Shown here in pieces: positions 37,451 to 50,050 of a stretch of DNA of 64,000 nucleotides. The stretch lies in assembly GCA_010015585.1 (NCBI GenBank), contig ML975155.1. One strand, 5' to 3'. Numbering within the stretch: position 1 is the first letter of the stretch; each line of letters starts with the position of its first letter. Position numbers and translations under genes: made by a program. Below the pieces are notes generated by a model. It worked only from the letters and a program-made list of their open reading frames with translations. It did not search any database and was not told the DNA's origin. The stretch comes from Eremomyces bilateralis CBS 781.70. Taxonomy: Eukaryota.

Positions 37451-38569
37451 ATGGTCGCTCCTTTGGATTCGGTATGCGCTACAATACCCCTCATTGATAT
37501 CTCTGGGTACCTCAATGGCGACAAAGAAAAGGCCGAGCGGGCAGTAGTCGAGTTGAGGACAGCTTGCCAGTCTCCAGGCTTTCTCCAAATAACTGGCCAC
37601 GGAGTAACTTCCGAGATTCGATCCCAACTGCTTCAAAAACTTGCCGAATTCTTTGCACTTCCCGCCGCGACGAAGCAGGCTCTTCATCGGAGCCAGTCGA
37701 AATGTCTGAGAGGCTACGAATCCGTTGGAGAGCAGAAGCTGGAAGCTGGCATTTCGGATCAGAAAGAGGGTTTTATGATCGGTCCCGATTTGCCGGCAGA
37801 GAATGGGTACCTTCAAGGACCAAATCAATGGCCCAGCGAGGAAGCAGCTCCTGGATTTCGGGAAGTCTATATGGCTTACTTCGACGTCATGCGTAATCTT
37901 AGTAAGACCGTGTTTAGATTAATGGCATTAAGCCTCGATCTAGACGAACGATACTTCGATGAATTCGTCGGAAGCAAGGATAGTGAGTCGCATACACCAG
38001 TCCCGGCTGAAAGACTCATTGCGCTCAACGTCAATAGCAATATCAATGTGTAGAGCACATCGATATCCACCAACAACCCCGGAAATGGCTAAAACCTCTC
38101 GAGGTATCGGTGCGCACACGGACTTTGGTGCACTGACGCTGCTGTTACAGGACGATGGTATGTCGGTGAGATCGTCAGATGGATCGCATTGCTGACTTGG
38201 CGACAGTGGGCGGACTCGAAGTGTTCCACAAGCCAACAGGTACCTGGCATAATGTACAGCCAGTTAAAGATGCCTTCGTGGTCAACATCGGCGATATGAT
38301 GGGTGAGAAGATCTGCACCATATTAGAAAGATGAAACTGACAATATACATCCAGAGAGATGGACGAACAATACCTACACCTCAACCTTACATCGTGTCAT
38401 TTCACCCGTTACGGCAAAAGACCGATATTCGGTAGCGTTTTTCAACGAAGGACTACCAGACCAGCTAGTCAGCTGCATTCCGACATGTCTGAAACCGAAC
38501 GAGAAACCGCTTTTTGAGCCGATTAGAGTCGAGGATCATTTGCGTGCTCGATATGGAAACAGCTATTAG
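37451..38569 (+). CDS. 2-oxoglutarate/Fe(II) dioxygenase (DIOX_N + 2OG-FeII_Oxy, IPNS-like), 4 exons
   Basis: IPLIDIS, GFLQITGHG, GPNQWP, GIGAHTDFGALTLLLQD (HxD), STLHRV, RYSVAFF (RxS). Confidence 0.92.
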
Positions 38570-39019
38570 TAGGGAGCGGTCGAATCGATACCAGTAGTTG
38601 ATATAAGCAAATTCAGTGAGATTCACTTGGACTGCCACTCTTGATGGCGGGAAATACATCCCGAGATCTTCGAATTCTCTAGACATTCTGGTCGCCTGTG
38701 CCACTATATCTGGGCCAAGACTCAAGGTATCGAATCGTGATCGTCATTGATAGGGCTAGGAAGACGTAATCTCCATGTCGCAACTCTGGAGGGCTCCGAT
38801 ATCGGGAAATTCACGAGTTGCCGAATGTGAACATCAGCGAGCCGTATCCAGCCATAGAATGTCGTTTCACCGAAAGTGCCCTTCCCGTAAATGATCTACA
38901 GTCGTCGTGAAAATTTATTTCCGGATCCAGATATGATGAAAGCACGGTAGCGAGAAACTCGTTGGGCCAGGGAAAGTCCATGTCAGGACTGAATTCTGAT
39001 AGTTGTTGAGCTGCTATGC

Positions 39020-39430
39020 GTCAAGCTAAACATCGAAATATGCCCGCCCCCTTCGCCCAGGTAGACTGTTATGGATATCGCTTGACTGTAGATTGGCCTC
39101 ACGAACCGCACTTGGTGATTTCGTTCACCCGGATGTTGTTGATTCATGGACACGGCATCGACCCATATCAAACACTCATTATGTTCTTGCCCAAGGCGGC
39201 AGAGGGCGGAGTAGTAGTTTTCAGTCACGTAGCGATGCACTCCCTGGAGAGAACTCTACAGACTTGACGTGATATGTTTCCCAGACGTATAAAATAGCAG
39301 TATACAGCACGGTATCCATATCATGTGGTGAACGCAACACATTGCCATTGATCTGACTGTGCAAGAGTCTCGTTTCAACTTCACATTTGATGCGTGCAAC
39401 CACCTCCGACAGGCATATGATCTAGAGCTC
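39020..39430 (-). pseudogene. Degenerate HET (heterokaryon incompatibility) domain gene fragment
   Basis: YTAILYVW (cf. YxALSYxWG), then after a frameshift VTENYYSALCRL..IWVDAVSMNQQHPGERNHQVRFVRPIYSQAISITVYLGE; no continuation to the later HET motifs. Confidence 0.8.
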
Positions 39431-39432
39431 CG

Positions 39433-39500
39433 AAATGAATAAATGAATAAATGAATACGAATATAGCCCTTATTCATATTCGTATTCATATTTATTCATA
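39433..39500. repeat. AT-rich inverted repeat built of ATGAATAA/ATGAATAC units
   Basis: ATGAATACGAATAT (39451-39464) and ATATTCGTATTCAT (39476-39489) are a perfect 14-bp inverted pair, extended imperfectly outward. Confidence 0.85.
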
Positions 39501-40991
39501 TATCTCTCCGGGAATTTGTTGTTCCGGGCCGACCCGTTTCCTCTTCCTATAGATAGTTATATGCTATCGTCTTGCTTGTCAATAGACAGATTTCAGTCCA
39601 GTTCCTATGCCAGAACATAGGCAGGTGTTTTTGCGCTGCTTTGAGCCGTGCTGCGAATAGCCATGAATTTGGATCCCATATATCCCGTATGTCTAGGTAC
39701 GGGGCCCTATTCAATTGCAGGTAATTAAATGATGTTGGGTTGGCTTAGGTGCCTACATTTCTAGAGGGTTTTGCCTCCAAAAAGGGAGGTCTCTAAGCCA
39801 GCAATTTCTTTGCATCAGAACATCTCAATTGATTAGGCGGTTGGAAGAAGGTCCGCTACACAACACCTTTTTTCTAGGGAAAGTACAGGAATGGCAGTGT
39901 TTCTATTTAACTACTCGGTAACGGTCTCAACCAGATGCTCCCTGGTACGTTAGTAGTAGTAGTCCCATGACTTCCTCAAGGGCGTCGTCTAAGCACCACT
40001 TATCTCAATTCTCGTGAAATTTGAGCTGTTCGACGACCAGGGCAAGATAGTAGGTAGATATAACGCGTTGCTACGGCTAGAACCTAAGGTAATACACATG
40101 CTGTGCAGGATTTGTTAACCAGTTAGCGGTGTATTCCAAGTTAAGCAGCAGGTCCCACGTAGATAGTTGCTACAAGATCTTAATAAGAATCTCGGGAAGT
40201 TTTTGGAGATCAGACGATGAATTTGGTGAGTGTGTAGGTCGAAAACAGTAAGCTGGCTGAGAAAAGAAGGGAAGATGGCACCTCCATCCAACCAGTTCAA
40301 AGTCCTTCGAACGCTTCTCATTCATATATCCAGCAGGAAAGTACGTAGTCTGTGATCCACAAGACCGTGCGTCACACAGGGAGTGCTTCAGCCCCACCAC
40401 CTAAAACCGCCAAGCTTCTACACGCTCCATTCTCCACCATTACCGTATGGTTTGAGATCTTGATATCTAGAGGAGAATTATAATAGCTCTCAATGCCTTC
40501 AAATCTAGTCAATTTTCGAGTGTCAATACCTCCGCAAAGGCTTACAAGTTACAACGGCTATCAGAACACGATTCATTGGACGCAGGTCAATGCAGCAACC
40601 CCCTGTATATGTACCTTGGTCGGTTGGTTAGTGGTCCCAGCAATCTGGTTGCAGGAACAGCCCCAAATCAACCAACCAATACTCAGGTATTGCCGCCCAC
40701 CCTGCTGCTATCTTTGAGTGCCAGCACCGAGTTTCAGTTGAATGGGATTGTGCTGTGCCGCACAACCTTCCAATAAATCTATCGACAAGTCCCTCACAGA
40801 ATCCAAGATGTTCTTGGTAATATGGCGAATCGTCGCCAATGCTCATGCTGTACGTTGAAGTCTGGTTGGCACGGAATCGCGATGACTTTACTAACCAACT
40901 TACTAGGAGACTTGCAAACGACGCCGCCCATGACGCCGCTTTCTCCGCTTCATTCACAAGAATAACATAACGGTGGATTCTTCTACTGCAA

Positions 40992-41944
40992 ATGGCCGTC
41001 GCAACGTTAGATCCGACCTTCAGTCCCGCTGCATCTTGCCTGGCGGCGAACAATCTGTGGAAAATATTCGCGGACTGTCCGATCAACAATGGCGTTTGTT
41101 GGTATTTCTTACAGGGTCAGCCCACTACCTCATCCTGCTATCCGCCCGGTTACAATCCTACCTCCACAGCATACTATTCACCTGCGTCCTGTCCCTCTGG
41201 GTATACCTCAGCTTGTGGTGCAACTCAAACAGCCGGGACTGTCACAGAGACTGCGTACACTTGCTGCCCAACGTACGTAACCTTCATTATAACTAGCGCT
41301 CCAATGCTATCGAGGTCTACAACTGATTCCAATTTGGTTAATGAACAGTATCGGAATCTACACTTGCCAGAAAGACCCAAAGGATTACCATCCATGGGGT
41401 TTCACGCTAGGCTGTTATTCTAACTTTGCCTCGCCAGTCACGCATTTCGTAACTGCGTCGTCATCCGACAGCAGCTCAATGGAAACTGTGATCATGAACG
41501 CGACAGATGCTATCAATGCATATGCAATTCAAGTGCGATTTCAATCTACCGACTTTCCAAAATCAACCGTGAGTCCGACTAGTTCCCACCCAAGGATAAT
41601 GCTAAGTTGGACAGGGATCAATTATCAACACTAGTTCTAGTTCAACTTCTAATTTGAGCCAACCTTCGCTGCGTGTTGAGACGAATTCAAACTCCGGCCT
41701 CAGACCTGGAGCCATAGCTGGAATTGCCATTGGAGCTGTCATAGGTGCTCTGCTCGTCATGCTGTTAGCGTTGCTGATTATTCGTCATCGTAATCGTCGG
41801 AGACACAGACCGACCGAAAGAGACGGCAGCGCAGGGCAAAATATCTCGAATATGCAGCCGCCTAATTTTATCCCCGGACTCAAGGCGGAACTTGACAACA
41901 CATATGTGCCCGCACAGACCCGGCCGGCGGAATTGGAGGGATGA
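40992..41944 (+). CDS. Cys-rich ectodomain single-pass membrane protein (3 exons)
   Basis: SCYPPGY..YYSPASCPSGYTSAC..TCCP, AYAIQVRFQSTDF, S/T stalk, TM GAIAGIAIGAVIGALLVMLLALLII followed by RHRNRRR, tail motifs KAELD and PAELE. Confidence 0.8.
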
Positions 41945-42105
41945 AAGGACTGGATATTGGTTGGCTACTGGCAATCTTCAGCACGTAGTCTCAGAGTCGA
42001 GATGAACGGGTTCCTCATTCCTCAGTCTGGCATTCAGAAGCTAAAGAAGATGAAGAAGTCGAAGTACACGGTGCGTTCGAAGTTAATATTATTATCATCA
42101 TCATT

Positions 42106-45100
42106 AAAATAGCCCTGTGGTGCATAAAGGCAACCTTTCTGCCCCAAATAATCACGAGCATAGCTAGCACGTGATCTCTGCCTTGCTACATGTAGAGGCA
42201 TAACTAGTTAGAGTATCTCAACCCCGTAGGATTATTAATAAAGTACTCTTAATCATGGGGAGGAAACAGGGAAATGGCTGAATTGCTCAAAACCAGCACC
42301 TTCGCGATCAGTGCAAACTTCCTAATTAGGAAATCAAACGATACCCTTTTCTCATCTGATCGTCTAATCGTACAGTGATATTTTGATCCTGATCTCGCGC
42401 CACATAACCACCTTGCTTACAGCACTCACTCCCCGCCTTCCGGAAACCCTCCGCATCCACGCCACCCAGATATGAACTCCGTCCCTACCGTGCCGCCTGT
42501 GAAGGAAGCAGATGCTATGATTTAACCGATCATCGTTCCGGATACCGCGGAAGTTGAAGAACCTAGGGTTGCCTTCGTCCTTCGTAACCACAGCCGCACC
42601 CCGGATCCGCCACGGGGCGTAGAAACGACACTCCTTCTGGTCAGTACGTTTATTCGTGCGGAGGCAGTACGCATCAGTGCAATGGTGCTTCTGCACACGG
42701 TTAATGATGGCGGAGTAATGGGCCAGCGTATTCTCCTGGGTGTCAGGACTTAGCGCGATGGCACTCCGCTCATCCTCAGGTCGCGCCCGACGAGAAGGTT
42801 CGGGGTTCAACGCCATGATGTGACCGCCCCAGAACCGCGCAAATTTCTCAAGGGCGGCAGGGAGATCCTCCGTAGGGATACGATCAAGCTCATTGTTAGG
42901 GCAGGCACGGTCTAGCCAGAGGAGGAAATGTGAGTGCGACGAGCCGCGACCCTGCCACTCATATCGGCCCCATTGATCGCGGATGTTGAACTTAGGAATT
43001 ACCAAAGTCTTGTATAGAGCCTCGCGGCGCCAATGAAAGAGATATGCGGCGATGTGGGGATAGTCTCGGAGGTTGCGGCGTGAGATTGAGATCCACTCCG
43101 CTGGAGATCCATTACGCCACTCCTCATATTGAGGTAAATGACGCTGCAGATCATCCCAGTGGTAATCGGCGGCCGACAGCGTTAAAAAGATGTCGGGAGA
43201 CCTGATCCATTGCACGGTAGCTTCAAGTTGCTTGCCACGCCCAATCCAATAGGGCCGCGTGCCGCGTGCCGCGTAGACTCCCCGAAAAACGGATAATAGA
43301 GTTCAGCAAGGCCTGGGCTTCAGGAGAGTCATCCGCAAAAGCAGCACAGAGCTCCTCAAGAGATAGATTACGTTGCTCAGGACGTTGATGAACGAAGTAA
43401 GATGCACGGGTATTGACCTGCTTCCGGAAAAGAGTGTTGAAAGGGACATACCGTAGGCGCGGATGCTTTGCAAAACGACCATCGTGGAACCTCATCAGAT
43501 GCTTGATATATTCACGATACTCTACCTTCCGGAGACGGGGATGAACAAAGTCCCCAACACCGCAGGGGAAGCAGCTTGGGAACGCCAGGCTTAGAAGAGC
43601 CTGAGAGTGGTTAAACTCAGATAGAGGAGTCAATCTAAACTCAGGCATCGTCAGATGCTCACTTCGACGTTCCTGAGCATCATCGACATGCTGCCGAAGT
43701 CGCTCCATCTCCGTATGGGGCTGAAGGAGATCCGGGACTACAGCGACGTATTCTGCCTCTTCTCCTGTATCGTCATCGCCGCCTCCTAGCTCTTCTTCCT
43801 CAATAGTCTGGACGCCGACCTCTTCCATAATACTATCATCAATAGGAAGATGCTGCAGGCGGCTATGGTCGACGACGACATCGCGATATCCAGGGTGGTG
43901 AACCTTGAGATGGGTTAGCCACTGCTCGATGACAGTACGGCGAACACGGTAGTCCCGTCGAAACTGGCGCTGCATACGGGGATCCTGATCCCAATTCGCA
44001 GGGCGAAGGACAACGATCTCAAGGTCTTTCGGAAGGAGAGGTAGTCGATTGTATACGCGCCCCACGTCTCGCATGAAGTTGATGATATGCCCTGTATAAC
44101 GGTACTGAAGACCGTTAACCTTTCGAACCTCCACAGCACAATGGACACGGGCGATGAGGAGCCCCTCTACTTGAGATAACTCAGGAAGACCGTAATGCGA
44201 CGGGCCTAGACCAGGATTTAAATGATTCTCTGCGGAATACAGCGGTGGTAAATCGCCACGTTTCCGATCGTCGATCCTGCATCGATGACATATACTACCA
44301 CCCATGAGACGCATATCAAACCATTTTTCGTCACACCGAGTGCAGTGTTCAAGGCATAGTTTGGCCATCTCCTTGTGGAAGTCCTTGACGTAGGTCCAAT
44401 CCTGCTCGGAAAGATTGGCGTCCTGGATGTTGAAGTCGCGGGACTGGGGATCGAGGCGAACATCTCCGCGCTGAAGTGCTTCTGTTCGATCATCATCTTG
44501 CTGTTGACGTGTATGATCGCGTTGCTCATCTCTCCGTTGACGTGTACGATCGCGTTGCTCCTCTATCCGTTGTCGTGTACGTGGTTGCTCATCGCCATGA
44601 ATTTGGGATAACCCGGCCAAGGAGATCGGACTTATATGCCTAAACCTGTTGTCGCCATCATCATGAGCACCTTGACTAGATTGCGGTTGATGTAAAAGTG
44701 GTAGCCTCTGTCCCCGGAGATAATCTTCGAATATTGGTAGCGGCTGGACATGACGGTGTACACGAGTAGCAGCACGATGAGCCCGTGACATAGCGTTATA
44801 CTCTCTGCGAGCAGCGGCTCTATCCTCATCGTCCTGGCTATGTATCCCGGCACGGTGGAATAGGGAAGTCTCCCGCCTCCAAGACCTATCGTCCTCAATG
44901 TCGGTTTGTTGCGAGGATGAGGCATCTCGTGTAGACATAATGGCGGGTTGAAGATGGGGGGACTAATGATGTCAGCTTCAACGTATTGGAATCATTCACT
45001 CTACCTACAGCGTCACCATGATCGTGACCATAACGACATCACCAGCAAGTCTTGACTAGTAGTCGGCGACATTTTGAAGTAAACTCCTTATCAACCCTCC

Positions 45101-45372
45101 AGGACCGGCAGTTCGCGCATACGCTACCACCAGGGTCTCCAGAAGATGACATGCCGGAGGTGTAATAATAGAGTGATTGATTCATTCACACACACATCAA
45201 CAATAGAGTGATCAATTGGAGGAATTCAATCACGTGATTTACATTCACGTGATTTAAGTTCGCTTAGCAAATCTAATCCCTGTCCAGCCAATCAGAAGGC
45301 GAATATCGAGAATGATTGGATGAGATTGATTCTACCACGACCACTTAAGTAACTCGCTACGCTCGTGATTAT
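42106..45372 (-). mobile_element. Non-autonomous, internally deleted non-canonical Helitron (Helitron2/HLE2-like), about 3.27 kb
   Basis: Rep coding region inside; 20-bp inverted repeats at 42148-42167 and 45353-45372 (18/20 identical); 3' hairpin at 42122-42142 and ATTTT terminus at 42110-42106 on the minus strand. Confidence 0.82.
42364..44938 (-). pseudogene. Helitron Rep protein, frameshifted and truncated (Zn finger, DUF6570-like, Helitron_like_N, HUH)
   Basis: CTRC..CHRC, LPELSQVEGLLIARVH, YRYTGHIINF, AFPSCFPCG, DGRFAKHPR, FLTLSAAD, RYEWQGRGSSHSHFLLW (HUH), CRFYAP, RNDDRLN; no YxxKY motif or Pif1 helicase follows. Confidence 0.9.
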
Positions 45373-46285
45373 ATCTATTTAACGTCTGTTTCGGTTCCTA
45401 TTGGTCCGTGCAGGCTGCATCTCTGCAATGCAGCAATGGAGGATAAAAGACCCAGTAGCGCCGGGCGCGTCCGATCCTCCAACCAGCCTTATCCACAAAG
45501 TGCAATCAGGTTTCAAGCCCTCAATTAGTTCGGGATCTGGATTTGGACCCCACCGAGGGTCCAAATCTGGCTCACTTCAACACTGCATTTGTGTCGTCTC
45601 CACATGCATAAGAGTTAGAGGTAGAATTTAGAAACGTGGCTATCACGCATACAGTCGCGAGCAGAATCGGTTTCCGGTTTGCACTCTTATTATTTGTTCT
45701 TTCCGCACGGTCCATATGACAAGGGTGATTCGTACTCTGTCCTAGCGGATTGCAAGGATAGCTGCGTATATATTAGTTCTTTGCATTACATAATAGTACG
45801 CCGTGATGGGAAGCTCTACACCTATAACTCAGGTAATTAGTAAATGCTGGGTTCTAACTCAAGAGGAAATAGTAGGTATCTATTTCTGTTTAACTGATAA
45901 ATATTAACCGTTCTCAAGGAAAATCACTACCCTCTACCAGTGAAAAGGTCGTCAGCAGATCAACTTCAACCTGATACCTCAAGTGCAATGGGATTATAAG
46001 AGCAGACAATGAACGAACCACAAAATAACGACGAATAGGGGCGTTGCTAAGAAGTTGTAGCTTTGATAGAGAAATGGTAATCCTATTCCAACGCGTCGCC
46101 GCTGTATCATGTTCCAAGGGAGGAGTGATTCAATATCCTGGAAGAGATCTGGAGTCGCGCAATGAAGCTAGAAACCATTATCGCGACAGAATCACGATTT
46201 TCTCACTAGCATAGATCGATGAAAGTGCTTGAATTGTGTATAGTGATAGAATTGAGTCGGTTTTACAACTATCTTGAATCTATGC

Positions 46286-48213
46286 TCAAAAGGAGTCATC
46301 TGAATCAAAGGAATCGTAATAGTCACCAGATTCCTCATCAGGGGTTGTATCCGCGTCAGGATCGTTAATCCCCTTGTCTTGCCATTGATTTAAGCCCGCT
46401 CTTTGCTTCGGTGAGAGCCTGAATCGCGCCTCGTATGCAGCTCGAACCATTTGTCTTGTGGTGTATTTGAAAGTCCGTAAGTGTGAGACGACGAATTGCA
46501 CCGCATTGAATAGCTGGTTCCTATTTTTCATTTCGTCCTCGAGTTGACCTACCAACAACAAATACAAGAGTTGGAAACCCGCATCGCGTGCCAATCGCAT
46601 GTTCCCTTTCACTGGCTCATCGTAACTGTAATCTGTTCTCCCAACTTTAAGATTGGAGATTATCTCGTTCAAAGATAAACCATCCAGAACATCAACATTG
46701 AGAAACTTGTACGTCTCGCAAAGAGTCCGGTATTGAGAAACCTCGGGAGGGAGAGATCGAAAGCAAGAGCGATAGCCTGATTCAGTTCCTTTGACGGCTA
46801 TATCGAAGAGAGGTATTCCGTGGTGAACAAGCTCGGTTGAGTTTGGATCAGATGCCTTTTGAAGTCGAACGAAGGATGCCAGATACTGAATTTTGGAAAC
46901 ATCAAGACTGTAAACTACTCCCCCAATCCTAATTTTAGTTTTGCTGGCTTCTTTATTACTTTCGGGTTCCAATGACTTTCCTGTTAGCTTTCTGGACGTC
47001 GGCACTTTTAAAGTAAACTTACCTGAGATAAACTTGTTTGAGCAGTCTTAGCTTCTGATGGACCGACATTACTAGCATCAAGATTGGGTTGGGGATCGTC
47101 CCATTTCAAATACAAGTCCTCAGGCAACATCTTTTTCTCATCCATCTTAGAGACCACCAACCTATCTCTCAAGGCATCATACCTCAGAACTCCCTGACCA
47201 CCAACTGCCTTCACCGCATCAATGATTCTCCGAATCAATACAGCCAGTTTCCTCAGGTGGCCTTGGTTTTGTTGCTCCCAACTCTTGATTTGAACTGTCA
47301 CGTCTTCAACGTCCGGTCTCTCAAAGATGCCGTTCCGATGATAGGCTCGTACAAGCTTCGGGGTTTGTGATACCCAAAGCTGAGGTGCAACTTCTTGAAT
47401 CGTAAGAGGTTTATGAGCCACGCGGGTTTTGATCTCAAGGGTTGATTCAAGAGGCACTGCTTGGCCCGTTTCTTTAACAATCAGATTGGTCTTAACAGGC
47501 CTGTTATTTGCTGTAGACAGGACCAAAGATCCCAAGGCACTGGAGAGACTATCAATTCCTTGCTCCTTCCTCGTTGCGGAGAATGTTGTTGTTCGAGTGC
47601 CCACATATCCATCCGTTTCGTGGCGGATGATGACGTTCAGATCGCTAAAACGGTATGAGATAATTCGGTGATGTCCAGTACTGCCGCTGACCTGGCTAGT
47701 AGTATACGCCTTCTCGAATTCATGACCATACCCTCTGAATTTATGCGGTCCGATAAACTCATAGGTTGCGGTCTCATCACGACAGAATATTGCGGTGTCC
47801 TTTACAATCTCGACTTTGATGGTGAAGGCTTCAATTCCACCTGGACCAGAAGAAACGAACGACAGAAGTTTACGAATGTTGTTGCGGTCAGATACAACAT
47901 CAATTGAGCAGATGTCAAATGAAGGGCTGGTCATGTACAGTGAGCGGAAAAGTGGCTCAAGCGGGCTATCTGGATGTCGAGCCGCATTTTGCGCAATATA
48001 GATGAGGCCGGAGTCCTTGTTCAACTGTCGTGTAGCTCTTGGAACTGACCAAAGTGCTGGGCTGCCTGGAACGGCGATGGTAGGTGTAGATTTGGGTGCC
48101 TCAATCCAGTTATAGGAAGAAATATGCTTGACATCAGTGATGGAAGCTGAAAGTGTGCTGGGTGCTTGGAGATCTAGGCGAGAGATCTCGGTTTCGATAG
48201 TATTGGATGCCAT
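46286..48213 (-). CDS. Two-domain protein of about 626 aa: N-terminal DXO/Rai1-like PD-(D/E)XK nuclease fold plus unknown C-terminal domain
   Basis: SDRNNIRKLL, GYGHEFE, RHETDGY, LEIKTR, QLW motifs; a 47-nt intron at 47022-46976 (GTAAGT...GCTAAC-AGGAAAG) joins ORFs 47008..48213 and 46286..47005 in frame. Confidence 0.72.
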
Positions 48214-48823
48214 TGAAGAAGCTGGACATCAATTTGAAAGGTGGAAAAGCGAAGAAAGGTTTAAACCTGGGGGAAACCTCACGGTGTGATATCCATGGTT
48301 TCGAGCAATAAATAATCCTTGCTGAGTAGCTAACAGCAGACAGATAGGCCCAGCATGCGCGATTTTTGATTGCCATTTGTTGCACTGTGACCCATTGTAA
48401 GAATCCAAATGCGTCCAGCCGCATCTATTCATCCTGAGAATGTTGCGCAGGCAGATATAGCAAGGCTGACAACTTGCGGCACAGCACATTCATTTAGCAA
48501 ATCAACGTTGGACATGACCCTTCTTGACATGTGTCATGTCTACCGACCAGTTCTCGCTGGAGGAATCTGCCAGCAGTCTCAGAGATGTGGTTTGCTCGAT
48601 GGTTACACAAACGCTACGTGTACAGCATTCTGTGGACTAGTATCGGAAAGGTTGGGCGTTGCTACCCTTTCTTTATATATTATCGAAGGGGATGAGGAAG
48701 GACGATTAGACAAAATGACAGTTCATTTACTCTCTCATTCCTTTGAACACGATTCATTGCTCTAGAATCATCACACCCAACTTTCAAAAGTGAACAGCGG
48801 ATGTCACTGTGTCTATATTCACG

Positions 48824-49621
48824 ATGGATATTGATAATATGGCGGAGCAACATACTCGGCTGATAAGCACTCAGAAACAAACTTTACAGAGAGCCAAAGC
48901 GCGTCAGGGCCAGCGACCTCGCGTTCGAAAGTCCAGACAGGATGCCTACGCAAAATTCATGCTTCCTCTCATGCTAGGAACACCCAAAGAAGACGGCCAG
49001 ATGATTCACTCGTCCTTTATTCCCCCAGCTTATCATCCGTGCAGTACGCCGGTAGCCCAGTTACAGCGCATCGTGATTAGAGAGCTCCAGCTAGAGACAC
49101 ACCATCGAGGCACGTATCTCTTGCTACGGTCCATCACACCGCCTCGTCGCATGACCGCGATTATGGCACTCGTGGAGGATGAAGAAGGCGATGCCATGAT
49201 GCTGCAGTTATACCAACTAGAAGACGAGAGCACCCGTAAGGCAGCCGATATGGTCAGCGTTGGTACCATCCTGTTGTTGAAGGAGCCATACTACAAGGTT
49301 ATGGCCGACGGCGAGTATGGTCTCCGTGTTGATCATCTCTCAGATGTGGCGTACCTTGATATGGATGACACCAGAATCCCGGAGGTGTGGCGGCCTCGAA
49401 TGATGGGACTACAGCAAACAGCCGAGTCGTTGAAGATCAGGGGTAATCTGGCTATGGGCGAAAAGAGATATTGGGATGCGAGTACAGAGTAAGCGTACCA
49501 CGTTAAGAGTAGAATCGACGGCCGCATATCTGAACATGTGGACAACTGTAGTGTGGTATACAACAATAGAGCGCAATTAGATCAATCATACCATATCGAC
49601 TTATGGAGGGCTCTCAAATGA
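48824..49621 (+). pseudogene. N-terminal fragment of a fungal TPR-SET domain protein; most TPRs and the SET domain are missing
   Basis: PPAYHPC, LETHHRG, MTAIMALVEDE, LLKEPYYKV..GLRVDHLSDV, first TPR helix AESLKIRGN; donor GTAAGC at 49489, then only a short possible exon before a stop. Confidence 0.65.
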
Positions 49622-50050
49622 ATTAGAATGAAAATGAGCCGCAGTTCTCAAAACAGAGTGTACCTCAACCAAGGTTTATTGGTGACTAGATAATATTACT
49701 GAATGGAAGTTGAAGCATAGCATGGGAAATCATGGACAAGCGGTGGCTGTGGCTGACTAGTCATCAATCTATCAGCCCGATGAGATGTCGTTGATGTGGC
49801 GGTGCTTGTCCTGAGTGGAGACCACTCCGCAACTAGAAGTCGGAGGTCCGCAATGTTTGGTGACGATTGACGAGGAACAAAGGAAACCACTTCTTCTCGT
49901 ACTGATTCTCTAATGAGTGTGAGGGCCTTGGAATCAAGAGTCCATAAATCGCATTGCCTTTGCGCTTGAAGCTACCTCATAACCTAGTTTGGGACGCCAT
50001 GCCGCAGCATCACCGATCTCTCCCGCTTGCATGCTCCACATCCACCGAAG

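What the first reader, a model, noticed from the sequence alone, without database searches (positions are those of the whole stretch)
46286..48213. Uncharacterised DXO/Rai1-like nuclease fused to an unknown domain
The order and spacing of R(NNIRKLL), GHEFE, ETD, EIK and Q match the catalytic motifs of DXO/Rai1/Dom3Z decapping exonucleases (R, GxxFE, ExD, ExK, Q). The protein does not look like housekeeping Rai1 and carries an extra domain of about 230 aa with an acidic tail. From memory, such fungal proteins are often labelled 'geranylgeranyl pyrophosphate synthetase', yet this one has no prenyltransferase DDxxD motifs. Inference: an RNA cap/5'-end nuclease effector, possibly antiviral or cell-death related given its accessory context.
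Basis: partly seen in the sequence, partly recalled or inferred. Interest (0 to 1): 0.7.

Follow-up and report, generated by a model that had tools for sequence, protein, structure and literature searches.

The report
Rai1-like enzyme fused to BTB-like domain
This fungal gene encodes a divergent relative of the Rai1/DXO enzymes that trim faulty RNA 5' ends, joined to a probable BTB-type interaction domain, and belongs to a large, unstudied family that databases wrongly call a geranylgeranyl pyrophosphate synthetase.

Summary
A two-exon gene on the minus strand (48213..46286) encodes about 626 aa. Residues 5-374 are predicted with high confidence (pLDDT 89.8) and match solved Rai1/DXO structures over about 300 residues (Z 25.9; next unrelated fold Z 5.1). 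Motifs I-IV of that family (R110, GHEFE167, E199-T-D201, E260-I-K262) and Q283 of motif V are present and mostly conserved. Motif VI is not evident, and no family member reaches Pfam's RAI1 cut-off. The "unknown" 229-aa C-terminal part looks like a BTB/POZ-like core plus a helical bundle and an acidic tail; that assignment rests on moderate fold and language-model evidence only. The family is large (2099 clusters at 50% identity) and every named member seen is from Pezizomycotina. Its "geranylgeranyl pyrophosphate synthetase" label probably comes from a chimeric gene model in Uncinocarpus reesii. My searches found no paper on it. Best reading: an active, metal-dependent RNA 5'-end hydrolase. 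An Asn after the motif I Arg, as in plant DXO1, hints at a preference for non-canonical caps. The BTB-like part would be an oligomerisation or adaptor module. Nothing supports an antiviral or cell-death role. This is a new variant of a known kind, of moderate interest.

The parts
48214..48350 (-). Probable 5' untranslated region
   Evidence: A 1,981-nt contig of run X1 lies on 46273..48350. The first in-frame ATG after a stop is at 48213.
47023..48213 (-). Exon 1, 397 codons (P0001)
   Evidence: The relatives start with the same MAS..EISRLDL N-terminus.
47092..48201 (-). DXO/Rai1-fold domain, residues 5-374
   Evidence: AlphaFold2 model with pLDDT 89.8 and pTM 0.86. VIA Z 25.9, rmsd 3.4 A, 304 residues aligned to S. 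cerevisiae Rai1. Z 25.7 to Arabidopsis DXO1 and 23.7 to mouse DXO. Foldseek E about 1e-13.
47884..47886 (-). Motif I arginine R110; the next residue is N111, not Gly
   Evidence: It aligns with the R of VTFRNNLNKIL in Arabidopsis DXO1. R is present in 34 of 58 family representatives.
47713..47727 (-). Motif II, G163-H-E-F-E167 (G-phi-x-phi-E)
   Evidence: It aligns with GYCFE of Arabidopsis DXO1. E167 is present in 23 of 58, and 20 of 58 have E at position 168.
47611..47619 (-). Motif III, E199-T-D201
   Evidence: It aligns with EMD of Arabidopsis DXO1. E is present in 48 of 58 and D in 49 of 58.
47482..47601 (-). Variable, probably disordered loop (residues 205-244) between motifs III and IV
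   Evidence: pLDDT is below 50 for residues 209-226 and 228-234. There is no consensus here in alignment A1.
47428..47436 (-). Motif IV, E260-I-K262
   Evidence: E or D is present in 53 of 58 and K in 49 of 58. The motif lies in strand 258-265 of the model.
47365..47367 (-). Q283, the Gln of motif V
   Evidence: Q is present in 49 of 58. It lies at the end of helix 272-282. The Lys that motif V has seven residues upstream is Ala276 here.
46976..47022 (-). Intron, 47 nt, GT..AG with a CTAAC branch
   Evidence: The X1 contig joins 46975 to 47023. This join keeps the reading frame. The public model P0003 uses a 35-nt intron instead and gains four residues, LTGK.
46286..46975 (-). Exon 2, 229 codons (P0002) plus the stop codon
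46688..46951 (-). BTB/POZ-like core (exon-2 residues 9-96)
   Evidence: The model has pLDDT 85.6. VIA matches: Nac1 POZ Z 8.4, gigaxonin BTB Z 7.4 (rmsd 2.8, 78 residues aligned), Plasmodium Kelch BTB Z 7.4, and KCTD10, Kaiso, Miz1/BCL6 at Z 6.6. The best Foldseek rows are KBTBD2, KBTBD4, SPOP and Skp1, with E 0.06 or weaker. In the Atlas, 20 of 30 hits fall in clusters where some members carry PF00651.
46343..46687 (-). Helical bundle (exon-2 residues 97-211)
   Evidence: The model shows helices 102-110, 126-142, 148-164, 171-184 and 189-199. VIA matches to helical repeats reach Z up to 8.4, which is generic.
46289..46342 (-). Conserved acidic tail ending in ..DSDDSF
   Evidence: The family consensus is TTEEE..D.Y..SD.S.. 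The last 35 residues hold 12 D/E and 1 K/R. pLDDT is below 50.
47653..47702 (+). Intron-like skip of 50 nt in antisense orientation, inside exon 1
   Evidence: The X1 contig joins 47651 to 47702. On the plus strand the skipped stretch reads GTATGA..GCTGAC..TAG. In the sense message the skip would give a stop after residue 172.

Best explanation
The gene encodes a divergent paralogue of the DXO/Rai1 RNA 5'-end enzymes, restricted so far to Pezizomycotina. It is joined through a roughly 35-residue linker to a BTB/POZ-like domain, a helical bundle and an acidic tail.

Shown here:
- The N-terminal domain has the whole DXO/Rai1 fold.
- It keeps the Arg of motif I, the acidic residues of motifs II-IV that bind two metal ions in DXO, the Lys of motif IV and the Gln of motif V.

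Inferred:
- It is a Mg/Mn-dependent hydrolase acting on RNA 5' ends, with decapping of non-canonical caps and/or 5'-3' trimming as the likely activities.
- The residue after the motif I Arg is Asn (R110-N111-N112), as in Arabidopsis DXO1. There that Asn suppresses decapping and exonuclease activity and leaves removal of NAD caps intact. I therefore expect removal of NAD-type caps to dominate.
- The BTB-like part makes the enzyme oligomeric, or docks it to a partner such as a cullin-3-type scaffold.

Close relatives without the C-terminal part exist, so that part is an accessory module and not part of the catalytic core.
For: Fold. The AlphaFold2 model has pLDDT 89.8 and pTM 0.86. Foldseek gave 53 matches with E <= 0.001. 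By their titles, every listed row is Rai1, DXO/Dom3Z, Dxo1, an eIF3d cap-binding domain, or a complex containing one of them. VIA gave Z 25.9 to S. cerevisiae Rai1 (304 residues aligned, rmsd 3.4), 25.7 to Arabidopsis DXO1, 23.7 to mouse DXO, 19.4 to K. lactis Dxo1 and about 16 to eIF3d. It then drops to 5.1 for lambda exonuclease.

Sequence. The best PDB hit of the family profile is Arabidopsis DXO1 (E 0.086), with motifs I, II and III in register. Ten of 58 family representatives give sub-threshold Pfam RAI1 hits, the best at E 5.8e-05. In the Atlas, the best cluster outside the family's own has 49% of members carrying RAI1 (score 0.89).

Conservation among 58 representatives: E199 48, D201 49, E/D260 53, K262 49, Q283 49. 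Of the 120 closest relatives, 113 keep all five motif patterns.

Motif definitions and metal ligands come from passages of PMC9283932 and PMC6511851. The effect of the Asn comes from passages of PMC6511851.

Fusion is real. One contig of run X1 joins the two exons in frame. Locus L005 encodes both parts in a single 611-aa frame with no intron. Twenty-eight of the 150 best representatives carry both parts.

BTB-like part.
Against: - No activity was measured.
- No family member reaches Pfam's RAI1 gathering score. The best is 23.0 bits against a cut-off of 26.8, so 0 of 58 pass. The query itself gives no Pfam hit even at E <= 1.
- A second profile built from nine members found nothing in the PDB sequences.
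- Motif V lacks its Lys (Ala276). The likeliest counterpart of motif VI (G-h-R) reads G295-I-F297, and F is present in 56 of 58.
- E167 of motif II is present in only 23 of 58 representatives, and R110 in 34 of 58.
- The middle residue of motif III is Thr, not a hydrophobic residue.
- I did not measure the spatial clustering of the side chains, because no coordinates were available.
- The BTB assignment is weak. Foldseek found no match at E <= 0.001. VIA Z-scores of 6.5-8.4 lie in the range the tool calls common. None of the 38 members hits Pfam BTB at E <= 1, and the profile search of PDB sequences found no BTB protein.
- The preference for NAD caps rests on a single residue and an analogy with a plant enzyme.
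Confidence: 0.6

Rival explanations
1. The N-domain keeps the DXO fold but works mainly as a binding module for RNA 5' ends or caps, as eIF3d does. The BTB-like part would then recruit a cullin-3 ligase, so the protein acts as a substrate adaptor and not as a nuclease.
For: eIF3d cap-binding domains share the fold at Z about 16. The order 'recognition domain, then BTB, then helices' resembles SPOP, which is among the weak Foldseek rows. Motifs V and VI are incomplete.
Against: The model is much closer to the enzymes (Z 23-26) than to eIF3d (Z about 16). The metal-binding acidic residues and the Lys are kept in about 83-91% of the 58 representatives and in 113 of the 120 closest relatives. That level of conservation would not be expected of a pure binding module. 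Close relatives lacking the BTB-like part exist.
Confidence: 0.12
2. This is the first reader's reading: an RNA 5'-end nuclease that serves as an antiviral or cell-death effector of an accessory, immune-like locus.
For: The family is large and diverse, with 2099 clusters at 50% identity. A broken Helitron-like element lies next to the gene. G+C dips to 0.45-0.48 around it.
Against: I saw no link to NLR, HET, HeLo or other immune-type domains. The four longer relatives carry a polyprenyl-synthetase fragment, a DnaJ domain, 2EXR plus DUF4360, or nothing. Neighbours differ in every related locus examined. The subfamily is 60-70% identical across fungal classes, which is slow evolution for an immune effector. 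Most other Pfam-annotated genes in the window are housekeeping types.
Confidence: 0.07
3. This is the database label: a geranylgeranyl pyrophosphate synthetase.
For: Only the UniRef and NCBI names given to relatives.
Against: Pfam finds no polyprenyl synthetase domain, and there is no DDxxD motif. The fold is DXO/Rai1. The one relative with a polyprenyl_synt hit is P0368, the 839-aa Uncinocarpus reesii model. Residues 7-606 of that model are a complete family member. A separate 53-residue fragment at 787-839 matches profile positions 2-57 of 251. This is best read as two neighbouring genes merged into one model.
Confidence: 0.01

Closest known systems
Rai1 / DXO (Dom3Z) / Dxo1 family of RNA 5'-end decapping, deNADding and 5'-3' exonuclease enzymes (Pfam PF08652)
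   Same: The whole-domain fold matches, with Z 23-26 over about 300 residues. Motifs I-IV and the Gln of motif V occur in the same order. The order of the motif-bearing secondary-structure elements is as expected.
   Different: Sequence identity to solved members is only 10-14%. No family member reaches the Pfam cut-off. The Lys of motif V and the Arg of motif VI are not evident. A disordered insert of about 40 residues lies between motifs III and IV. The C-terminal BTB-like module is an addition. A passage of PMC11571810 says most eukaryotes have a single family gene. I expect this gene comes on top of the canonical Rai1. That is recalled general knowledge, supported only by the presence of Chaetomium Rai1 in the PDB. 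I could not check it in this genome.
Arabidopsis thaliana DXO1
   Same: It is the best sequence-level PDB match. It shares the local motif I context, R-N-N-(L/I)-x-K-(I/L)-L, with Asn directly after the Arg. In DXO1 that Asn lowers decapping and exonuclease activity but not deNADding (PMC6511851 passages).
   Different: DXO1 has an N-terminal disordered extension and no BTB-like domain. The two proteins are not orthologues. Across this fungal family, the position after the Arg is N in 22, S in 21 and G in 2 of 58.
eIF3d cap-binding domain
   Same: It has the same fold class (Z about 16).
   Different: The similarity is lower than to the enzymes. The query keeps the catalytic-type residues.
BTB/POZ domain proteins, such as SPOP (MATH-BTB), the KBTBD BTB-BACK proteins, and small fungal BTB proteins
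   Same: The core secondary structure runs beta-beta-alpha-beta-alpha-alpha-alpha. Fold matches are at Z 6.5-8.4. The nearest Atlas clusters are Ascomycota proteins of about 234 aa, and 39% of their members carry PF00651. The domain order, with a recognition or catalytic domain followed by BTB and then helices, resembles SPOP.
   Different: There is no sequence-level BTB match. The helical part matches only generic helical repeats. The conserved acidic C-terminal tail has no counterpart that I know of.

Membership tests
DXO/Rai1 (PF08652) | Overall DXO/Rai1 fold | tested here: met
   Z 25.9, rmsd 3.4 A, 304 residues aligned to Rai1. The next unrelated fold scores Z 5.1. Foldseek E 1.4e-13.
DXO/Rai1 (PF08652) | Motif I: conserved Arg that binds the 5' phosphate | tested here: met
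   R110 aligns with the Arg of Arabidopsis DXO1. R is present in 34 of 58 representatives, and 117 of the 120 closest relatives match the pattern.
DXO/Rai1 (PF08652) | Motif II: G-phi-x-phi-E (metal ligand) | tested here: met
   G163-H-E-F-E167 aligns with GYCFE of DXO1. The Glu is at position 167 in 23 of 58 and at position 168 in 20 of 58.
DXO/Rai1 (PF08652) | Motif III: E-h-D (metal ligands) | tested here: met
   E199-T-D201 aligns with EMD of DXO1. E is present in 48 of 58 and D in 49 of 58. The middle residue is Thr, not a hydrophobic residue.
DXO/Rai1 (PF08652) | Motif IV: E-h-K | tested here: met
   E260-I-K262. E or D is present in 53 of 58 and K in 49 of 58. The assignment rests on order and secondary structure, not on a residue-level alignment.
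DXO/Rai1 (PF08652) | Motif V: K-x4-phi-h-Q | tested here: inconclusive
   Q283 is present (49 of 58), but the residue seven positions upstream is Ala276 (family: L 25, A 16).
DXO/Rai1 (PF08652) | Motif VI: G-h-R | tested here: inconclusive
   The likeliest counterpart reads G295-I-F297, with F in 56 of 58. I had no residue-level structural alignment to confirm the correspondence.
DXO/Rai1 (PF08652) | Score above Pfam's gathering cut-off | tested here: not met
   The query gives no hit at E <= 1. The best relative scores 23.0 bits against a cut-off of 26.8, so 0 of 58 pass.
DXO/Rai1 (PF08652) | Metal-dependent hydrolysis of RNA 5' ends | not testable with these tools
   This needs enzyme assays.
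BTB/POZ (PF00651) | Core BTB fold | tested here: inconclusive
   VIA Z 6.5-8.4 to Nac1, gigaxonin, Plasmodium Kelch, KCTD10, Kaiso and Miz1/BCL6 over model residues 1-134 or 9-98. Foldseek's best is E 0.063, probability 0.87. In the Atlas, 20 of 30 hits fall in BTB-bearing clusters.
BTB/POZ (PF00651) | Sequence match to the BTB profile | tested here: not met
   None of the 38 members hits PF00651 at E <= 1. The query gives no Pfam hit.
BTB/POZ (PF00651) | Self-association or cullin-3 binding | not tested
   I ran no job on copies of the C-terminal part or on a cullin.
Polyprenyl synthetase (PF00348), the database label | Polyprenyl synthetase domain with DDxxD motifs | tested here: not met
   No Pfam hit and no DDxxD or DDx2-4D motif. 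The fold is DXO/Rai1.

The most novel reading that the evidence does not exclude
The DXO-like domain senses or cleaves RNAs with non-canonical 5' ends, and the BTB-like module couples this to cullin-3-type ubiquitylation or to regulated oligomerisation. That would give filamentous ascomycetes a dedicated, lineage-specific RNA 5'-end surveillance pathway that has expanded to 2099 sequence clusters. It would be parallel to canonical Rai1-Rat1 and might act against foreign or aberrant RNA.
Probability: 0.1. Interest if true: 0.8.

Novelty: new variant of a known kind. Interest (0 to 1): 0.5.

Why it matters
The DXO/Rai1 field describes most eukaryotes as having a single family gene, with a few duplications in budding yeasts, flies and nematodes (PMC11571810 passage). 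This work points to a large family in filamentous ascomycetes that standard profiles miss and that databases label as a terpenoid enzyme. Its catalytic-type residues are largely intact, and a subset carries a BTB-like fusion. If these proteins are active, they add a new branch of RNA 5'-end metabolism in fungi. They would also give a natural series of variants at the position after the motif I Arg (N, S or G), which is known to tune substrate choice. A practical result is that the wrong annotation can be corrected and its likely source named.

Tried and rejected
- Single-sequence searches of PDB sequences with either part gave only chance-level rows with E >= 0.96.
- A nine-member profile (A3) found nothing in PDB sequences.
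- The C-domain profile's only PDB row was a CRISPR Csf2 protein at E 0.21. I read that as chance.
- Complex prediction on the N part with the C part gave 'no answer' (score 0.00; mark 0.34). This is no evidence either way.
- The look-up of sequencing runs listed no holder on record as RNA. The one holder, X1, is only guessed to be RNA.
- The whole genome is not held, so I could not check the copy number of the family or the presence of a canonical Rai1 in this organism.
I repeated it with the single protein.
- Neighbours in related loci differ from locus to locus: C2H2-jaz zinc finger, P450, DUF6594, dynamin, OrsD, CCDC47, cation ATPase. Gene context therefore gives no functional clue.
- Earlier findings of this scan gave nothing by place, by sequence or by words.
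- Literature searches found no paper on this family or on a DXO-BTB fusion.
- I considered a sense-strand reading of the 50-nt skip and rejected it. On the sense strand its ends are CT..AC, and the skip would truncate the conserved protein after residue 172.
Full report
**The gene**

The finding's span is the coding span of a minus-strand gene. A 401-codon ATG frame runs from 48213, and a second frame ends at the stop at 46286-46288. The sequence between them has a GT at 47022-47021, a CTAAC box and two possible AG acceptors. Only the acceptor that gives a 47-nt intron (47022..46976) has outside support. One 1,981-nt contig of run X1 lies on 46273..48350 and joins 46975 to 47023. X1's kind is not on record and is only guessed to be RNA. 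The join keeps the reading frame and gives 397 + 229 = 626 residues. The public model of this protein is P0003 (630 aa), which the tool names as from Eremomyces bilateralis CBS 781.70. It uses a 35-nt intron and carries four more residues, LTGK.

**The observation**

- D109-R110-NNIRKLL
- G163-HEF-E167
- E199-T-D201
- E260-I-K262
- Q283

These come, and I checked the codon positions by hand. The C-terminal part is 229 aa. Its last 35 residues hold 12 acidic and 1 basic residue. There is no DDxxD motif and no Pfam hit of any kind for either part, even at E <= 1.

**The N-terminal domain**

A search of 5.8 billion proteins gave 983 relatives at E <= 0.001 among 6,309 candidates. The 120 best are 61-70% identical, apart from the query's own record at 100%. 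A search of 1.84 billion cluster representatives gave 2,099 clusters at E <= 0.001, 1,397 at E <= 1e-10 and 448 at E <= 1e-30.

I chose 57 representatives that cover the domain and aligned them with the query (A1). AlphaFold2 gave a confident model with pLDDT 89.8 and pTM 0.86. Only residues 209-234 have pLDDT below 50.

Foldseek against the PDB gave 53 matches at E <= 0.001. By their titles, the listed rows are all Rai1, DXO/Dom3Z, Dxo1, eIF3d cap-binding domains, or complexes that contain them. The best is E 1.4e-13. Re-alignment with VIA gave these scores:

| Structure | Z |
|---|---|
| S. cerevisiae Rai1 (rmsd 3.4 A, 304 residues, model range 5-374) | 25.9 |
| Arabidopsis DXO1 | 25.7 |
| Mouse DXO | 23.7 |
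| K. lactis Dxo1 | 19.4 |
| eIF3d | about 16 |
| Lambda exonuclease | 5.1 |

Sequence-level links are weak but point the same way:
- The best PDB hit of the A1 profile is Arabidopsis DXO1 at E 0.086. R110, G163..F166-E167 and E199..D201 align with the DXO1 stretches VTFRNNLNKIL, GYCFE and EMD.
- Ten of 58 members give Pfam RAI1 hits at E <= 1. The best is 23.0 bits, and all fall below the 26.8-bit cut-off.
- In the language-model atlas, the best cluster outside the family's own is one where 49% of members carry RAI1 (score 0.89).

**The motifs**

A passage of PMC6511851 lists the six family motifs:
- I: R
- II: G-phi-x-phi-E
- III: E-h-D
- IV: E-h-K
- V: K-x4-phi-h-Q
- VI: G-h-R

A passage of PMC9283932 says two metal ions are held by acidic residues of motifs II-IV, and that the motif I Arg binds the 5' phosphate.

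In the query, motifs I-IV are present. Motif V keeps its Gln but has Ala276 where the Lys would be. The likeliest motif VI counterpart reads G-I-F.

Counts among the 58 aligned representatives:

| Position | Count of 58 |
|---|---|
| R110 | 34 |
| E167 | 23 (E at position 168 in 20) |
| E199 | 48 |
| D201 | 49 |
| E/D260 | 53 |
| K262 | 49 |
| Q283 | 49 |

Further near-invariant residues are R183 (57), F297 (56), E86 (55), W280 (54), R197 (53) and R145 (52). Of the 120 closest relatives, 113 match all five motif patterns by regular expression.

I could not measure whether the side chains cluster in space, because model coordinates are not exposed to scripts. The fold match and motif order make clustering likely, but it remains an inference.

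**A substrate hint**

The residue after the motif I Arg is Asn (R110-N111-N112), the same local pattern as Arabidopsis DXO1 (R297-N298-N299). Passages of PMC6511851 report three things. Most active homologues have Gly at this position. Asn298 strongly lowers decapping, pyrophosphohydrolase and exonuclease activity. It leaves removal of the NAD cap almost untouched. By analogy, I expect this protein to prefer NAD-type non-canonical caps. This rests on one residue and is an inference.

**The C-terminal part**

The C-terminal part is conserved in its own right. Ninety-seven separate ORFs of 133-381 aa match it at 44-64% identity. Many sit on contigs whose lengths equal those of N-domain hits, which is what gene callers that ignore introns would produce.

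An alignment of 38 sequences (A2) gave a model with pLDDT 85.6 and pTM 0.80. The model has three regions:
- A beta-beta-alpha-beta-alpha-alpha-alpha core (residues 13-110).
- Five longer helices (residues 126-199) and a short helix (206-210).
- A disordered acidic tail with the family consensus TTEEE..D.Y..SD.S.

Foldseek found nothing at E <= 0.001. Its top rows are nonetheless BTB proteins: KBTBD2, KBTBD4, SPOP, Skp1, Kv T1 and vaccinia A55.

An independent all-against-representatives VIA search gave BTB/POZ domains on residues about 1-134: Nac1 Z 8.4, gigaxonin 7.4, Plasmodium Kelch 7.4, KBTBD2 7.0, and KCTD10, Kaiso and Miz1/BCL6 at 6.6. It gave generic helical repeats at Z up to 8.4 on residues 97-211. 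The tool warns that Z-scores of 7-8 are common.

In the atlas, 10 of 30 hits have no common Pfam family (the top two are Ascomycota clusters, probably the protein's own). The other 20 of 30 fall in clusters that carry PF00651 BTB. The best of these scores 0.91, and 39% of its members carry the family.

There is no sequence-level BTB match. I therefore call it BTB-like with moderate confidence.

**How common the fusion is**

- Seven relatives I read in full include four with both parts as one protein: Xylographa, Coleophoma, Lojkania and Botrytis.
- Nine of the 120 closest hits carry both parts.
- Twenty-eight of the 150 best representatives carry both parts. Among the 88 with a near-complete N-domain, 14 do.
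- These counts are lower bounds, because many gene calls stop at the intron.
- Of 21 metagenome loci, five have 49% identity or more to the query and about 2 kb or more downstream of the match. L005 encodes both parts in one uninterrupted 611-aa frame. L002 encodes both with a short gap. L008 has only a weak trace of the C part. L001 and L003 have none.

The C-terminal part is therefore a recurrent but dispensable addition.

**Distribution and the wrong label**

All named members I saw are Pezizomycotina. They come from Dothideomycetes, Leotiomycetes, Lecanoromycetes, Eurotiomycetes, Pezizomycetes (Terfezia) and Coniocybomycetes (Chaenotheca). The class assignments are from my own knowledge.

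The search for longer relatives found four. One is the 839-aa Uncinocarpus reesii model named 'geranylgeranyl pyrophosphate synthetase'. Its residues 7-606 are a complete two-part family member, 54% identical to P0003. A separate stretch at 787-839 matches only positions 2-57 of the 251-position polyprenyl synthetase profile. The simplest reading is that a gene model merged two neighbouring genes, and its name then spread to the family. This is an inference.

**Context**

On one side of the gene lies a Helitron-like element, split over two overlapping frames at 42364-44962 on the minus strand. On the other side are an unassigned 232-aa frame at 48794-49492 on the plus strand, and then a DUF747 membrane protein.

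The rest of the window carries mostly housekeeping-type genes: adaptin, ADA2, a Myb protein, BRE1, an HRQ1-type helicase, a methyltransferase, C1-tetrahydrofolate synthase, a permease and a dioxygenase. G+C falls to 0.45-0.48 between about 38 and 50 kb.

I see no immune-type signature. Neighbours are not conserved in related loci.

**Literature**

Six searches found no paper on this family, on Rai1/DXO paralogues in Pezizomycotina, or on a DXO-BTB fusion. For those searches I saw listings and abstract starts. I read passages of PMC9283932, PMC11571810, PMC6511851 and bioRxiv 10.1101/2025.10.29.684918. I opened no supplements. The library does not hold most subscription journals.

**Verdict**

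The fold and active-site reading is supported. The 'unknown domain' is probably BTB-like. The antiviral or cell-death idea has no support. The protein is best filed as working like a DXO/Rai1 enzyme and as a very distant homologue of that family. It is not a member of Pfam RAI1 as currently defined. It is a new variant of a known kind and of moderate interest.

Noticed in passing
window 47653-47702 (+), inside exon 1: The X1 contig that skips the sense intron also skips 50 nt here. On the plus strand the skipped stretch has good fungal intron signals (GTATGA..GCTGAC..TAG). This suggests a spliced antisense transcript over the gene. In the sense message the skip would stop translation after residue 172. 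The contig probably merges sense and antisense reads of an unstranded library.
   Followed up: partly
window 46976-47022 (-): The public gene model (P0003, 630 aa) uses a 35-nt intron and adds LTGK. The contig evidence supports a 47-nt intron and a 626-aa protein.
   Followed up: yes
window 42364-44962 (-): A Helitron-like element lies directly beside the gene's 3' end. It carries DUF6570 and Helitron_like_N. The Helitron_like_N match is split over two overlapping frames, so the element is probably broken. No helicase part appeared in these two frames.
   Followed up: partly
window 48794-49492 (+): A 232-aa open frame with no Pfam match lies about 600 bases from the gene's start and is transcribed divergently. 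Its end looks like the beginning of a TPR-type repeat; that is my own impression and I did not test it.
   Followed up: no
P0368 (Uncinocarpus reesii model, 839 aa): This is a chimeric gene model. It consists of a complete family member (residues 7-606) plus the first 57 profile positions of a polyprenyl synthetase at residues 787-839. It is the likely origin of the family's wrong database name.
   Followed up: yes
P0361, P0369, P0371: Other additions occur on relatives of the DXO-like domain. P0361 (Cladophialophora, 436 aa) has an N-terminal CCCH zinc finger, a typical RNA-binding module. P0369 (Zasmidium) has a DnaJ domain. P0371 (Cudoniella) has 2EXR plus DUF4360. Some of these may be merged gene models.
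   Followed up: no
L001:3365-4261 (+): In one related locus, the gene about 1.7 kb upstream of the family member encodes a zf-C2H2_jaz protein, a double-stranded-RNA-binding zinc finger. I saw this in only one locus.
   Followed up: no
window 38001-50000: G+C is lower here (0.45-0.48) than in most of the window (0.49-0.61). The dip covers the Helitron-like element and the gene.
   Followed up: no
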